This document shows positions 6,001-9,000 of a DNA stretch of 64,000 bases, piece after piece. A program made the position numbers. How positions within the stretch are numbered: position 1 is the first letter of the stretch; each line of letters starts with the position of its first letter. This DNA comes from Escherichia coli (GTDB taxonomy: Bacteria > Pseudomonadota > Gammaproteobacteria > Enterobacterales > Enterobacteriaceae): the NCBI RefSeq assembly GCF_048403405.1, contig NZ_CP183129.1; one strand, written 5' to 3'.

Positions 6001-9000
6001 TCCCTGACCAGTTTTTCCGCCTGCTGGCGAACCTGCGCCAGAAACGCCTCACCACATGCCTCAAGTTCATCGCGCCCGATGTAGCTGATTGCCGGTCCCT
6101 TCCAGGTCTTGTCGAAAACAGCAATAGCACCAGCGAAGAAAGCGCCTGTCGGCACCTGCTTCTCATCTTTCGGGATAAACCAGGCAGGCAGTTCAAAACC
6201 AATACGCCCGCGAATAAAAGCAATATGATCTGCATCTTCCGGCCACCACACTTCGCTGGTGGCAGCTTTGATCAGGAAAACATAGCGCCCGCCTTTATCA
6301 CGCATGGCACTGGCATGTTTCATGATGTAACGCATGCCGGTGATGTATTGCCCCTCATGCTGACTGGCGCGGCTGTATGGGGGATTACCAAAGGCAGCAC
6401 CTTTAAGCTCCGCAAGACGTTCTGACCAGTCATGCGCCAGCGCGTTGTCTTCCGCCGTGTAATACGCGGTACATTTGGCGTTATCACCGTCAGTAAACAG
6501 ATCCAGGACAAACGGGCCAAACAGGGTGTTAATTCCCCAGAAAATGTTATCCGGCGTGCGCCACTGATCGCCCACTTCCTTCAGTTCATGGGCTGGTTTG
6601 TTCCGCAGCTCCACCAGCTCCTGGCAATATTTATTACTCATTAAGCCCCCACGTAATTCCCTGACAGATACCACTCATCACCCGATACAGCGCGCTTGCT
6701 GCTTTTCCGTAAGCACCGCTCACGACGTGCCAGAAAATTGTTTCGTTCTGGCTGGGAGTGGCTTTCACGGAATGCCGCCATCCACACGGTTGCAGCACGA
6801 CGGTATAAGCCCCTGGACTCCAGTTCTTCAGCCTGGCGGGTCAGGCACAAAATCACCCGGGGATCGTTAGTGCCGACATAGAAATTGCGCACAGGTCTGG
6901 TTTCACGAACTGGTTGTGGTTCCGGCTCCTGCGCTCTCTCAGTCAGGCGCGGGAAATGTCTGCGTGTATATCCTTCACAACGGTGAGCCACACGCCCACT
7001 CTGACGTAACTTGCTTGCAGACTGCAGAACGCGCTGCCGTGAGTAACCTGCAAAAGCATCCGCAATGTCTCCGGAAGTACACCCCGGATGGGCTTCAATG
7101 AATTTCTGAACTTCATTCAAAAGACTCATGATTATCCCCTGAATCCTGCCGGGATCTGGCTGTAGTCCACGTTGTCGTAACTGGCTTTGAAGTACGGGTC
7201 CTCGCGTCTGGCTGCAGATACCGCAGGAACTTCCCAGGATTCTTCGAAATGACGATCCGGACCAAAGAACGTGACAGCCTGTTTCACAAATTGTGTGCCG
7301 CTGTTACCCATCGCAGATACCCAGCCCGCGTAGCGTTTCACACCTTCCAGCATGGTTTCGGGTTTTACCCCCTCATTCAAACGGGCTTTCCAGGCTTTGA
7401 AGGCTGCAGATTTTGAATTGCCACCAGCACGTTTGGGGTATGCCAGCCATGCCTGCTCAAACTCCGGAGAGTATTCCGGTCGGTTTGAACGAACTCGCAC
7501 AGACTCATCAGCAGATGCACCAACAGCTATTGGTTCATTGACTGGTTCTTTGACTGGTTCAAAAGAGTGACTGGTTCTGGGTGAATCTCCTGCACCACCC
7601 CCTGGTGCAACTCCTGCACTACCTGGTGAATTTGCTGCACCAGATAGTGAATTATTTGCACTACCCCCTAGTGAATCTCCTGCACCATCAAGATGAAGGA
7701 GATAGATATTACTTGAGTTACCTTTTTCACCTTTCCGGGTGACTTTTTTTACCAGCCCGGAATCACAAAGGGCCGCAATATGATTCATCACAGAACGTTT
7801 GCTAATCTCGCACTGGTCAGCAATATGCTGGTAGCTGGGCCAGCACTCACCCTGATCGCTGGCATTATCAGCCAGCTTGATCAGAACCAGTTTTCGCAAT
7901 GGATTACCCACTCGAATTTTCATCGCTTTAACCATCAGCTCCATACTCATGCTGCACCTCCGAGATGCTTCATGTTTTTTCCGGAGCAAAAGGCTATAAG
8001 CGGCATACTGATGCGGTAATTACGGCCCAGCGGTTCACAAATCACCTTCTGACATTCACGGTCAACCAGGCTAACACGTAGAACATGCCCTGCAGGCGTG
8101 GTGTACCACTGCCCAACTGTAGGAATTGATGTTTTTTTACGCTGAAGCAAACGGCAAATATTGAGGATCAACGGATTAAGCATGACGATGCCCTCCGCTG
8201 ATATTCAGGAGACGGTGAATATGAAAATTAGCCTTATCCGCCAGACGAATACGTTCAGCCTGCAAGTTAAGAAGGGTTTCTACCAAAACCTGATGCGCCT
8301 GCGGATCCGAAAGAGTTACCTTGCGCAGAGCACGTAGTGCAGTTGTTACATAACTGAGTTTATGTAAGTCTTCATCATTCAGACGAGTGAGGGCTGGGAC
8401 AGTAGCCATGATGGCAGCCTCCGATAACAGTGAATTACCTTCACCACCGGAAACGCCAATTTCGCTGGTGGTGAACTGAACGGGGTTGGCGTAACCGGCG
8501 TTATCGGAAACCGGCGCACCTTTCGGTGCCCCCGTCCAGCCCACCATAATTTGGGTGTGCACAGACGCAGACGATAAAAAAGACGCTGGCGCGTCATATA
8601 TCGCCGATAACATTTCCAGGACGCCAATCCCGTCACCCGCTTTATAAGGTGCCTGAACAGTGTAACGTCCCGGAATGGCAGAATCAATGTGCTGGTGGTC
8701 CTTCACACTCAACAAAATCACGCCTGAATTTCCACAAAGGACTAAAGCACTCATGCGGGTAGTCTTTGCGAAGATAGATAACGCGCTGTGTTTCTGGTTC
8801 CCAACGAATAACATGGACATAAAGCCCTCTTCCGTCACGAAACCAGCGGTTAAGTTCCCGCACAACTCGCCCCCCACAGTCAGGTAAAGTTCTCTGTGGT
8901 TACTTACAGCCAGGTAATTTGGTAATCTGCATTCATGCCGTAACAACAGGTGTTCAGCGACACTGACCACCAGCTGTTGCGACAAACGGTTATTTGCCGT

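What the first reader, a model, noticed from the sequence alone, without database searches (positions are those of the whole stretch)
7132..7950. Phage replication protein carries the host DnaT C-terminal motif
The 272-aa phage protein ends ...DYSQIPAGFRG, nearly identical to the C-terminus of chromosomal DnaT in this same window (...[10 protein letters not shown] at 25486), while its N-terminal half is an HTH replisome-organiser-like domain. This suggests the phage initiator mimics DnaT to recruit the host restart primosome.
Basis: seen in the sequence. Interest (0 to 1): 0.5.

Follow-up and report, generated by a model that had tools for sequence, protein, structure and literature searches.

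The report
Phage initiator shares DnaT's loader-recruiting tail
A prophage replication-initiator protein ends in the same short peptide (IPxGFRG) as the host restart protein DnaT, and comparison of hundreds of phages suggests this peptide is a swappable tag that calls in the host-type helicase loader DnaC, which would point to how DnaT itself recruits the replicative helicase.

Summary
The 272-aa ORF at 7132-7950 (minus strand) ends in DYSQIPAGFRG. Chromosomal DnaT (24947-25486) ends in [10 protein letters not shown].

The similarity is confined to this tail. The phage protein has no DnaT domain by Pfam, hhalign or BLASTP.

The protein is a lambda-O-style initiator. It has a winged-helix N-domain, a disordered linker encoded by an iteron-like array, a three-helix C-domain and a disordered tail.

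The tail behaves as a portable module:
- The tail pattern (QIPxGFRG plus stop) gave 120 hits in viral contigs. All 120 are C-termini of initiator genes, carried on several unrelated domains.
- Near-identical homologues carry other tails.
- Tail type tracks the gene downstream. IPxGFRG goes with no phage loader, or with a DnaC about 50% identical to host DnaC, and never with a phage helicase or intact lambda P.
- Other tails go with long DnaC-like plus DnaB-like genes, lambda P, or a primase-helicase.
- The motif is conserved in all full-length DnaT orthologues examined.

Best reading: the tail recruits host-type DnaC (with DnaB). No binding was shown, and an AlphaFold fusion test was inconclusive. 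"Mimics DnaT to recruit the restart primosome" is only partly supported.

The parts
7132..7950 (-). Phage replication-initiator gene (272 aa; RefSeq WP_000061487.1, annotated 'helix-turn-helix domain-containing protein')
   Evidence: ORF. PHROG phrog_270 'replication initiation protein' at 1.5e-88. Identical protein in Escherichia phage 2H10. RefSeq annotation.
7687..7950 (-). N-terminal winged-helix DNA-binding domain (residues 1-88)
7480..7686 (-). Disordered Gly/Ser/Ala/Pro-rich linker (residues 89-157)
   Evidence: AlphaFold2 pLDDT 31-38 over residues 91-157. Length varies between homologues.
7581..7690 (.). Iteron-like array: about 5 copies of GTGCA-N5-TTCAC at a 21-24 bp period. Probable origin, lying inside the gene as in lambda ori.
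   Evidence: Tandem Repeats Finder period 24 with 4.6 copies; the repeat finder families D1-D3; sequence read directly. Lambda iterons lie inside gene O.
7539..7578 (.). Three copies of TGACTGGTTC next to the iterons
   Evidence: the repeat finder family D4.
7231..7479 (-). Three-helix C-terminal domain (residues 158-240: YSPEFEQAW...FFGPDRHFEESW). Not a recognisable DnaT domain.
   Evidence: AlphaFold2 pLDDT about 92 with helices 162-170, 180-193 and 197-214. PHROG phrog_1701 and phrog_9327. hhalign against the DnaT C-terminal domain gives probability 0.3-5%.
7135..7230 (-). Exchangeable C-terminal tail (residues 241-272). Homologues switch tail type immediately after ...HFEESW.
   Evidence: P0043 is 88% identical overall, matches closely up to the conserved ...HFEESW, and then carries tail C. 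AlphaFold2 pLDDT 46-56.
7135..7167 (-). Core motif DYSQIPAGFRG, shared with DnaT
   Evidence: All 120 hits of the degenerate DNA pattern in viral contigs are initiator C-termini.
7135..7140 (-). AGGGGA: the last two codons (Arg-Gly) double as the Shine-Dalgarno of the next gene (ATG at 7129)
   Evidence: Sequence. 114 of 120 viral tails use AGG. The same arrangement is shown experimentally for dnaT/dnaC (bioRxiv 10.1101/069385).
6641..7129 (-). YfdN-like gene (wHTH plus PerC-family C-terminus) occupying the position where lambda P or a DnaC-like loader gene would sit
   Evidence: NCBIfam ANR/PerC and PHROG 'transcriptional activator'. RefSeq yfdN. Present after the initiator in 83 of the tail-A viral loci.
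24947..25486 (+). Host dnaT
   Evidence: NF002770 at 1e-104 and PF17948 at residues 89-154.
25451..25483 (+). DnaT tail motif [11 protein letters not shown] (residues 169-179)
   Evidence: IPxGFRG is identical in at least 98% of 105 Enterobacteriaceae DnaT. [IV]PxGF[RK][GD] is retained in full-length divergent DnaT.
25489..26226 (+). Host dnaC, the proposed target (with DnaB) of the tail
   Evidence: Adjacent to dnaT in 77 of 79 species loci.

Best explanation
The gene encodes a lambda-O-type origin-binding initiator of a lambdoid prophage. Its N-terminal winged helix probably binds an iteron array that lies inside its own coding sequence. A disordered linker leads to a small helical C-domain and then to a disordered C-terminal tail. 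The last residues of that tail, D-x-x-I-P-x-G-F-R-G, form a short linear motif that also ends host DnaT.

This tail is one of several interchangeable 'address tags' on phage initiators. Each tag specifies which helicase-loading system is brought to the opened origin. The IPxGFRG tag specifies the host-type loader DnaC carrying host DnaB. That lets this prophage dispense with any loader or helicase gene of its own. By the same logic, the tail of DnaT would be the element that brings DnaB/DnaC to the PriA-PriB-DnaT preprimosome.

Shown here: the domain anatomy, the modularity of the tail, its conservation, and the correlation between tail type and loader type. Inferred: physical binding, the identity of the partner (DnaC rather than DnaB), and origin function.
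For: Anatomy of the protein:
- Pfam, PHROG and AlphaFold2 define the domains.
- An iteron-like array lies in the linker-coding DNA.
- The gene sits between the cII-like gene and the nin/RusA region, and no DnaC-like, DnaB-like or lambda-P-like gene is found in the visible part of the prophage.

Modularity of the tail:
- Homologues 70-90% identical share the core up to ...HFEESW and then carry tail A (IPxGFRG), tail B (..FGxSxxxLxF) or tail C (..DYGxxxxxW).
- All 120 viral-contig hits of the tail-A DNA pattern are initiator C-termini. Tail A sits on at least 4 unrelated C-domains and at least 4 N-domains.

Correlation with the downstream gene:
- In loci with the FFGPDRHF core, tail A has no loader or helicase in 52 of 52 cases.
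- Two further loci carry a KTIPPGFRG variant of tail A. Each is followed by a 250-aa DnaC 47% identical to EcDnaC.
- Tail B has DnaC-like plus DnaB-like in 20 of 20 cases. Tail C has DnaB-like in 21 of 21 cases.
- The pattern holds after dereplication into 35 clusters.
- Across all tail-A families, none of 97 loci has a DnaB-like or lambda P gene.
- DnaC-like clades segregate perfectly with tail type, whereas DnaB-like clades are mixed.

Independent annotated phages:
- Gifsy-2 has a lambda-O-like N-part, tail A and a DnaC 49% identical to host DnaC.
- Rac YdaU/YdaV, POCJ13 and SPN1S follow the same rule.

Other tails go with other loaders:
- Initiators with the DnaT domain but other tails are followed by lambda-P-family loaders.
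- Initiators with the same N-domain but other tails are followed by lambda P or a primase-helicase.

Conservation and distribution:
- The motif is nearly invariant in DnaT and is kept in divergent orthologues.
- Tail A was seen only in phages of Enterobacterales. In the phages checked from Vibrio, Burkholderia and Ralstonia, homologues with the same C-domain core carry other tails. Pseudomonas homologues appear but their tails were not read. That these other hosts lack DnaC and use DciA is general knowledge, not tested here.

Literature:
- The last 5 residues of lambda O are essential, and the O C-terminus is the P-binding region (PMC6022878).
- How DnaT recruits DnaB/DnaC is stated to be unknown (PMC13377028, PMC5778457, PMC4132743).
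- DnaT residues 154-179 are of unknown structure.
Against: - No binding was shown. AlphaFold2 of EcDnaC-G30-DnaT(150-179) with a paired alignment gave tail pLDDT of only 39-52, the same as the tail in the free phage protein.
- The co-variation of tail with loader may partly reflect physical linkage, because the loader gene abuts the tail-coding DNA.
- One DnaT-domain initiator with MDYTIPEGFRG is followed, after a 290-nt gap, by an ORF equal to the C-terminal half of lambda P.
- Most tail-A phages carry a YfdN-like gene in the loader position. Its role is unknown.
- The terminal Arg-Gly codons also serve as the RBS of the next gene, so part of the conservation may be at the RNA level.
- The 2026 cryo-EM paper favours the DnaT N-terminal domain as the DnaB/DnaC recruiter.
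- The sampled phage loci are heavily redundant E. coli, Shigella and Salmonella prophages.
Confidence: 0.55

Rival explanations
1. The tail binds host DnaB helicase directly, not DnaC. Tail A would then mean 'use the host helicase', whichever loader delivers it.
For: Tail A never co-occurs with a phage DnaB-like helicase, whereas tails B and C always do. The P0333 locus combines a tail-A-like motif with a partial lambda-P-like ORF, and P loads host DnaB. No docking onto DnaC alone in AlphaFold2. Initiator-helicase contacts are the rule for DnaA and plasmid Rep proteins (general knowledge; DnaA-DnaB is noted in PMC5778457).
Against: Among tails B and C, tail type follows the DnaC-like clade and not the DnaB-like clade. 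Intact lambda-P loaders, which also use host DnaB, are paired with other tails. Tail A was found only in phages of Enterobacterales, whose hosts have DnaC, although DnaB is conserved far beyond them.
Confidence: 0.2
2. One reading: the tail binds PriA or PriB, so the initiator plugs into the restart primosome as a DnaT surrogate, and DnaT uses the same tail to dock on PriA/PriB.
For: The motif is shared with DnaT, whose known partners are PriA and PriB. The PriA-DnaT interface is described as small (640 A2), hydrophobic and conserved, without residues being listed in the text. Phages with no loader could use PriA-dependent loading as phiX174, ColE1 and Mu do (general knowledge).
Against: The paper assigns PriA docking to the folded DnaT C-terminal domain and PriB docking to the acidic linker. 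The residue counts in its Table 2 (1021 and 1483) leave about 70 residues per DnaT C-terminal domain. That implies the tail is not modelled, although this is my arithmetic from known PriA and PriB lengths. The phage protein lacks the DnaT C-terminal domain and the acidic linker. The alternative tails track loader genes, not PriA or PriB. Tail-A phages that carry their own DnaC suggest the loader step is what matters.
Confidence: 0.1
3. The tail is a self-association element that promotes oligomerisation or cooperative DNA binding of initiators and DnaT, not partner recruitment.
For: Removing DnaT 154-179 raised the apparent Kd for ssDNA about two-fold and lowered the Hill coefficient (PMC4132743). 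From memory, Szymanski et al. 2013 reported that the small C-terminal region of DnaT is needed for trimer rather than dimer formation; I did not check this here.
Against: The same tail sits on unrelated domains that could not share a docking site for it. Alternative tails co-vary with downstream loader genes, which a self-association role does not explain.
Confidence: 0.07
4. The conservation is not about protein function. The tail-coding DNA is kept because it carries the ribosome-binding site and translational-coupling signal of the next gene, or is a recombination joint. Alternatively its true partner is the YfdN-like protein encoded just downstream.
For: AGR-GGN-stop is the Shine-Dalgarno for the next gene in both dnaT/dnaC and the phage. 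A YfdN-like gene follows tail A in 83 loci spanning several initiator families.
Against: An RBS explains at most the last two codons, not D-x-x-I-P-x-G-F. The host and phage tails differ at five synonymous positions, and 23 of the 76 host dnaT tails scored use CGA for Arg, so selection acts on the peptide. Tail A also precedes DnaC genes or nothing, and about 13 tail-A phage loci lack the YfdN-like gene. The chromosomal dnaT is followed by dnaC, not by a YfdN-like gene.
Confidence: 0.06

Closest known systems
Bacteriophage lambda O protein and its C-terminal interaction with the loader lambda P
   Same: Same position in the genome. Same architecture: an N-terminal origin-binding domain, a flexible linker encoded by the iterons of an intragenic ori, and a C-terminal region that recruits the helicase loader. 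The last five residues of O are essential (PMC6022878). The Gifsy-2 initiator joins a lambda-O-like N-part to the IPxGFRG tail and a DnaC gene.
   Different: No BLAST-level similarity to lambda O. The C-domain is different. The tail motif is different (lambda O ends ..TDWIYGVDL). There is no P gene. The presumed partner is host-type DnaC rather than a phage-encoded P.
E. coli DnaT (primosomal protein i; NF002770, Pfam PF17948)
   Same: Identical C-terminal motif, D-S-Q-I-P-x-G-F-R-G followed by stop. The last codons serve as the RBS for the next gene. Both are thought to act just before DnaB/DnaC loading.
   Different: No DnaT N-terminal oligomerisation domain, no three-helix DnaT DNA-binding domain, and no PriB-binding acidic linker. 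The phage protein is sequence-specific and origin-bound rather than PriA-dependent.
Rac prophage YdaU/YdaV, Gifsy-2 O/DnaC and Stx-phage POCJ13 gp16/gp17 replication modules
   Same: Phage initiators ending in IPxGFRG. They have no helicase gene and rely on host DnaB.
   Different: Those phages carry their own DnaC (about 50% identical to the host protein), and several have a real DnaT domain before the tail. The window's prophage has neither and would depend entirely on chromosomal DnaC.
DopC/DopE (Brezellec et al. 2017, PMC5509034)
   Same: An HTH_36 N-domain initiator-like protein that combines phage-O-like and DnaT-like parts and is encoded next to a helicase loader.
   Different: DopC has the DnaT C-terminal domain and is paired with a lambda-P-like loader. 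In the phage initiators of that architecture examined here, the tails are not IPxGFRG. The window protein has the tail but not the domain.
SSB C-terminal tip (..DDDIPF) as a peptide hub
   Same: A functional analogy only: a short conserved peptide at the end of a disordered tail that recruits replication and repair partners. Tails B and C are acidic and end in an aromatic residue.
   Different: Different sequence, and IPxGFRG does not end in an aromatic residue. No evidence of a shared binding pocket.

Membership tests
Lambda-O-type phage replication initiators (PHROG phrog_270 and relatives) | Profile match to a phage replication-initiator family | tested here: met
   phrog_270 at 1.5e-88 over residues 3-271. 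Many other 'replication initiation' PHROGs match either half of the protein.
Lambda-O-type phage replication initiators (PHROG phrog_270 and relatives) | N-terminal winged-helix DNA-binding domain | tested here: met
Lambda-O-type phage replication initiators (PHROG phrog_270 and relatives) | Origin iterons inside the initiator gene, in the linker-coding part | tested here: met
   About 5 repeats with a 21-24 bp period at 7581-7690, plus 3 copies of TGACTGGTTC. Binding was not tested.
Lambda-O-type phage replication initiators (PHROG phrog_270 and relatives) | Position between the cII-like gene and the nin/RusA region of a lambdoid prophage | tested here: met
   Order ymfK (cI-like), ymfT, ymfL (cII-like), initiator, yfdN, methylase, RusA, Q.
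Lambda-O-type phage replication initiators (PHROG phrog_270 and relatives) | Sequence homology to lambda O itself | tested here: not met
   tblastn of lambda O against the window found no hit at E<=1e-3. Pfam Phage_rep_O is not among the hits.
Lambda-O-type phage replication initiators (PHROG phrog_270 and relatives) | Supports origin-dependent replication | not testable with these tools
   Requires an ori-plasmid or phage genetics.
DnaT (primosomal protein i) | DnaT three-helix ssDNA-binding domain (PF17948) | tested here: not met
   Absent from the Pfam scan. hhalign probability is 0.3% for the full families and 5% for domain-only profiles. BLASTP aligns only the last 9 residues.
DnaT (primosomal protein i) | DnaT N-terminal oligomerisation domain and whole-protein equivalog model NF002770 | tested here: not met
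   No NCBIfam DnaT hit for the phage protein. Host DnaT scores 348 bits.
DnaT (primosomal protein i) | C-terminal (D)xxIPxGFRG tail | tested here: met
   phrog_18526 aligns DnaT 159-179 with the end of the phage protein's C-terminal half.
DnaT (primosomal protein i) | Assembly onto PriA/PriB at forks | not testable with these tools
   Biochemical property.
DnaD/DnaB-type replisome organisers (Firmicutes and their phages) | DnaD-like N-terminal winged helix | tested here: inconclusive
DnaD/DnaB-type replisome organisers (Firmicutes and their phages) | DnaB_2/DDBH2 C-terminal domain (PF07261) | tested here: not met
   Not among the Pfam hits down to E=10. Only a PHROG labelled 'DnaD-like helicase loader' matches residues 147-249.

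The most novel reading that the evidence does not exclude
The last ~10 residues of DnaT (IPxGFRG) are the long-sought element that recruits DnaB/DnaC to the preprimosome. They would form one entry in a general 'tail code' by which phage and cellular initiators select their helicase loader: IPxGFRG for DnaC, ..TDWI.. and ..HWNSPEGW.. for lambda P, and acidic/aromatic tails for phage DnaC-like/DnaB-like pairs. Under this reading DnaT is a domesticated C-terminal half of a phage initiator that kept its loader tag.
Probability: 0.35. Interest if true: 0.8.

Novelty: new variant of a known kind. Interest (0 to 1): 0.62.

Why it matters
How the PriA-PriB-DnaT preprimosome hands over to DnaB/DnaC is explicitly called unknown in the 2014, 2018 and 2026 literature. 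The newest structure paper guesses that the DnaT N-terminal domain does it.

Phage genomes provide a natural domain-swap experiment that points elsewhere. They implicate a 7-10-residue C-terminal peptide that DnaT shares with many phage initiators, and that correlates with use of host-type DnaC. This makes the question directly testable with a peptide, a ten-residue deletion or three point mutants.

The result also gives a practical rule for reading prophage replication modules: the initiator's tail predicts the loader. It explains how a very common E. coli prophage family can replicate without any loader or helicase gene; sequence matching this region was found in 2728 of 5426 complete genomes. 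Finally, it suggests a small peptide-protein interface as a possible antibacterial or anti-prophage target.

Tried and rejected
- **AlphaFold2 fusion test.** I fused EcDnaC, a 30-Gly linker and DnaT residues 150-179, using 24 paired DnaC/tail rows. The DnaC core folded (pLDDT about 80) but the tail stayed at 39-52. That equals its value in the free phage protein, so the test is inconclusive rather than negative.
- **Larger fusion not run.** I prepared a DnaB-DnaC-tail triple fusion but did not run it.
- **Domain-level homology.** I looked for homology between the phage C-domain and the DnaT C-terminal domain by BLASTP, Pfam, hhalign on two pairs of alignments, and PDB sequence search. Nothing was significant. 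The same weak local alignment (phage 186-219 to DnaT 107-136) recurred, at probability no higher than 5%.
- **Literature searches.** 'DnaT-like' and 'PPGFRG' returned nothing. 'ydaU'/'ydaV' returned nothing relevant.
- **Other tail-A carriers.** Contigs for P0338, P0361, P0356 and P0351 ended at or just after the gene, so their downstream genes are unknown.
- **Recent gene capture.** I considered recent capture of the host dnaT 3' end by the phage. I rejected it because the two tails differ at five synonymous positions.
- **Chance.** I rejected chance as an explanation of the observation.
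Full report
**1. The observation**

The minus-strand ORF 7132..7950 encodes a 272-aa protein ending ...NVDYSQIPAGFRG. Host dnaT lies at 24947..25486 and ends ...[13 protein letters not shown]. It is followed two bases later by dnaC. NCBIfam identifies it as DnaT at 1e-104 and Pfam places the DnaT domain at residues 89-154.

BLASTP aligns only the last nine residues, 8 of 9 identical. This is far beyond chance:
- Among the C-terminal 9-mers of the 86 ORFs of at least 100 aa in the window, this is the only pair above 4 identities.
- 200 control draws of internal 9-mers never exceeded 6.
- The motif [IV]PxGF[RK][GD] occurs only twice in all six frames, both times directly before a stop codon.

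**2. What the phage protein is**

The window matches E. coli strain YDC107. It contains a lambdoid prophage integrated beside yjjG, about 9 kb from dnaT-dnaC.

The gene order is: integrase, yfdP/Q/R, cI-like ymfK, cro-like ymfT, cII-like ymfL, ash, a 78-aa ORF, this gene, yfdN, an N6-adenine methylase, a LexA-like regulator, RusA, KilA-N, DUF968, antiterminator, lysis genes. RefSeq calls this gene only 'helix-turn-helix domain-containing protein'.

Sequence matching this region was found in 2728 of 5426 complete E. coli genomes. The protein is identical in Escherichia phage 2H10, and very close in Stx2c phages, SfV, cdtI and mEp460.

PHROG assigns it to replication-initiation families (phrog_270, 1.5e-88). 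Pfam finds HTH_36 (4e-11) and a weak DnaD_N match, but no DnaT domain.

AlphaFold2 on a 19-sequence alignment gives four parts:
- a confident winged helix at residues 1-88;
- a disordered linker at 91-157;
- a confident three-helix domain at 160-240;
- a low-confidence tail at 245-272.

Structure searches recover only winged-helix proteins, including the DnaD N-terminal domain.

The DNA encoding the linker carries about five copies of GTGCA-N5-TTCAC at a 21-24 bp period (7581-7690), followed by three TGACTGGTTC repeats. This is the lambda arrangement, in which the origin iterons sit inside gene O.

No DnaC-like, DnaB-like or lambda-P-like gene exists in the visible part of the prophage. The slot after the initiator is taken by yfdN, a winged-helix plus PerC-type regulator.

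**3. The similarity to DnaT is the tail only**

Profile-profile comparison of the phage family with DnaT gives a probability of 0.3%. With broader domain-only profiles it gives 5%. The only PHROG that aligns the same (C-terminal) region of both proteins does so through DnaT residues 159-179 (phrog_18526).

The comparative data below show instead that the tail is a unit in its own right.

**4. The tail is a portable module**

Close homologues (70-90% identical) share the protein up to ...FFGPDRHFEESW and then diverge into three tail types:
- tail A: ...DYSQIPAGFRG;
- tail B: ...SGLGxMSDxFGxSxxxLxF;
- tail C: ...SGFSEQDYGxxxxxW.

P0043 is 88% identical to the window protein overall. It matches closely up to the conserved ...HFEESW and then switches to tail C.

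I scanned viral contigs with the degenerate DNA pattern for QIPxGFRG plus stop. It returned 120 stretches, and all 120 are in-frame ends of replication-initiator ORFs. These ORFs belong to at least four unrelated C-domain types and at least four N-domain types, including a DUF1376 plus genuine DnaT-domain family.

The host and phage tails differ at five synonymous third positions. The shared sequence is therefore maintained at the peptide level and is not a recent DNA transfer.

**5. The tail is conserved in DnaT**

In 105 Enterobacteriaceae DnaT sequences, I-P-x-G-F-R-G is at least 98% identical while x varies.

I also ran an exhaustive profile search of 1.84 billion representative sequences. 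The divergent full-length DnaT orthologues it found keep [IV]PxGF[RK][GD] at or within three residues of the C-terminus.

Published work describes DnaT 154-179 as being of unknown structure. The 2026 cryo-EM paper does not mention the tail. Its residue counts leave about 70 residues per DnaT C-terminal domain, so the tail is probably not modelled; this is my arithmetic.

**6. Tail type predicts the downstream gene**

In loci containing the FFGPDRHF core with at least 2.5 kb downstream:

| Tail | Loci | Downstream genes |
|---|---|---|
| A | 52 of 52 | no loader, no helicase |
| A variant (KTIPPGFRG) | 2 | a 250-aa DnaC, 47% identical to EcDnaC; no helicase |
| B | 20 of 20 | long (about 293-302 aa) DnaC-like gene plus DnaB-like helicase |
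| C | 21 of 21 | DnaB-like helicase (16 with the loader called; 5 with an 870-nt gap where it should be) |

The pattern survives dereplication into 35 clusters at 95% identity.

Across all tail-A families, none of the 97 loci with at least 1.5 kb downstream has a DnaB-like or lambda P gene. Three have a host-like DnaC.

DnaC-like clusters (80% identity) segregate perfectly with tail type, whereas DnaB-like clusters mix tails B and C. The tail therefore follows the loader, not the helicase. The caveat is that the loader gene is physically adjacent to the tail-coding DNA.

Independent, annotated phages obey the same rule:
- The Gifsy-2 initiator is 33% identical to lambda O over its N-terminal 217 residues, but ends in ..PDKTIPTGFRG. 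It is followed by a DnaC 49% identical to host DnaC instead of P.
- Rac YdaU/YdaV and Stx-phage POCJ13 gp16/gp17 do the same.
- SPN1S has a DnaT-domain initiator with the tail and no loader.

These tail-A-linked DnaCs align with host DnaC over its full length. The tail-B/C loaders align only over the AAA+ part, at 28-35% identity.

Initiators without tail A follow different rules:
- Initiators that do have the DnaT domain but lack tail A end in a lambda-O-like ..LDWNNTDWI.. or an acidic ..EER..D..DW tail. They are followed by lambda-P-family loaders.
- Two initiators share the window protein's N-domain but carry other tails. One (..HWNSPEGWKDFI) is followed by a lambda P homologue. The other (..TGYVFFDR) is followed by a primase-helicase.
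- Homologues in Burkholderia and Ralstonia phages have yet other tails and their own DnaC/DnaI-like loaders. Vibrio phage homologues have an acidic tail.

Tail A itself was seen only in phages of Enterobacterales, the group that has DnaC and DnaT.

**7. Mechanism**

The best-supported model is that initiator tails are loader-specific address tags, and that IPxGFRG addresses host-type DnaC (as the DnaB-DnaC complex).

The precedent is lambda. There the C-terminal region of O binds P, and loss of the last five residues inactivates O (PMC6022878).

For this prophage the proposed sequence is:
1. The winged helix binds the intragenic iterons.
2. The C-domain and linker help open or coat the origin.
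3. The tail captures chromosomal DnaB-DnaC, so the phage needs no loader gene.

For DnaT, the same tail would be the missing link to DnaB/DnaC, a step the literature calls unknown.

Shown here: anatomy, modularity, conservation and correlation. Inferred: binding and the identity of the partner.

My one direct test was AlphaFold2 of DnaC fused through 30 glycines to the DnaT tail. It did not order the tail (pLDDT 39-52, against 46-56 in the free phage protein). It neither supports nor excludes the model, because the relevant target may be the DnaB6-DnaC6 assembly.

**8. Rivals and caveats**

- **DnaB as the direct target.** This fits the absence of phage helicases. It also fits the odd P0333 locus, which has a tail-A-like motif followed, after a 290-nt gap, by only the C-terminal half of a P gene. 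It fits less well with the loader-clade co-variation, with intact P loaders using other tails, and with the taxonomic restriction of tail A.
This cannot be excluded from the text of the cryo-EM paper, which does not list the PriA-DnaT interface residues. It does not explain why tails track loader genes.
- **A role in self-association.** This has some biochemical support for DnaT, but cannot explain the same tail sitting on unrelated domains.
- **Dual coding of the last two codons.** The final Arg-Gly codons (AGR GGN) double as the Shine-Dalgarno of the next gene. This was shown experimentally for dnaT/dnaC (bioRxiv 10.1101/069385) and is evident in the phage. Part of the 'RG' conservation may therefore be at the RNA level. 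It does not account for DxxIPxGF.
- **The YfdN-like gene.** It follows tail A in 83 viral loci across several initiator families. It is absent from about 13 loci and from the host operon. Its role is open.

**9. Novelty**

Three things are already known: phage replication proteins are sometimes annotated 'primosomal protein I'; HTH_36 plus a DnaT C-domain occurs in DopC (PMC5509034); and dnaC is argued to be a domesticated phage gene (abstract of PMC5109545, seen).

I found nothing in the searchable literature describing three further points:
- the C-terminal IPxGFRG peptide as a separate, portable motif;
- its link to DnaC-type loaders;
- its implication for DnaT.

The protein itself is an ordinary, very common prophage initiator. 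The finding is a new variant of the known initiator-loader coupling, and it carries a testable consequence for replication restart.

Noticed in passing
window 25478-25483 and 7135-7140: The final Arg-Gly codons of dnaT (AGA GGG) and of the phage initiator (AGG GGA) are the Shine-Dalgarno sequences of the next genes (dnaC ATG at 25489; yfdN-like ATG at 7129). 114 of 120 viral tails use AGG for this Arg. The end of the motif is dual-coded.
   Followed up: partly
window 6641-7129 (minus strand); viral loci L090-L209: A YfdN-like protein (N-terminal winged-helix-like part plus PerC-family C-terminus) sits in the 'lambda P position' right after tail-A initiators in 83 viral loci spanning several unrelated initiator families. 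It could be a moron, a regulator, or an unrecognised replication accessory or loader.
   Followed up: partly
loci L001-L009 and L211-L319: The alternative tails B (..MSDxFGxSxxxLxF) and C (..SEQDYGxxxxxW) are acidic and end in an aromatic residue, reminiscent of the SSB and T7 gp2.5 C-terminal tips. Each goes with its own clade of long (about 293-302 aa) DnaC-like loaders, while the DnaB-like helicases are shared between tail types.
   Followed up: partly
L406 3501-5171 (protein P0333): This is a DnaT-domain initiator ending in MDYTIPEGFRG. After a 290-nt non-coding gap it is followed by a 127-aa ORF that aligns only to the C-terminal half of lambda P (41% identical). The ORF may be a remnant left by a tail/loader replacement, or a real short P. 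A whole subgroup with MDYxIPEGF(R/H/N)G tails could not be placed because their contigs end at the gene.
   Followed up: partly
L415 (Gifsy-2) 1583-3312: The Gifsy-2 initiator is a true lambda O homologue in its N-terminal two-thirds. Its C-terminus is the DnaT-type tail, and its neighbour is a DnaC 49% identical to host DnaC rather than P. It is a natural tail/loader swap that could be used experimentally.
   Followed up: yes
window 7947-8183 and 8176-9012 (minus strand): The initiator's start overlaps the stop of a 78-aa upstream ORF by 4 nt, which suggests translational coupling. The long 278-aa mechanical ORF upstream corresponds in RefSeq to separate ash-family and DUF4222 genes.
   Followed up: no
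window ~15603-16826 and 21627-22304: The prophage integrase lies next to yjjG, so the prophage sits only about 9 kb from the dnaT-dnaC operon. The proximity looks coincidental: the same prophage region occurs at many chromosomal positions in other E. coli genomes.
   Followed up: no
proteins P0241-P0390: Only 184 cluster representatives out of 1.84 billion match a DnaT profile at E<=0.001, so the family is very small. A sizeable fraction of them are 250-580-aa phage-type initiators carrying the DnaT domain at their C-terminal end. This is consistent with DnaT being the domesticated C-terminal half of such a protein.
   Followed up: partly
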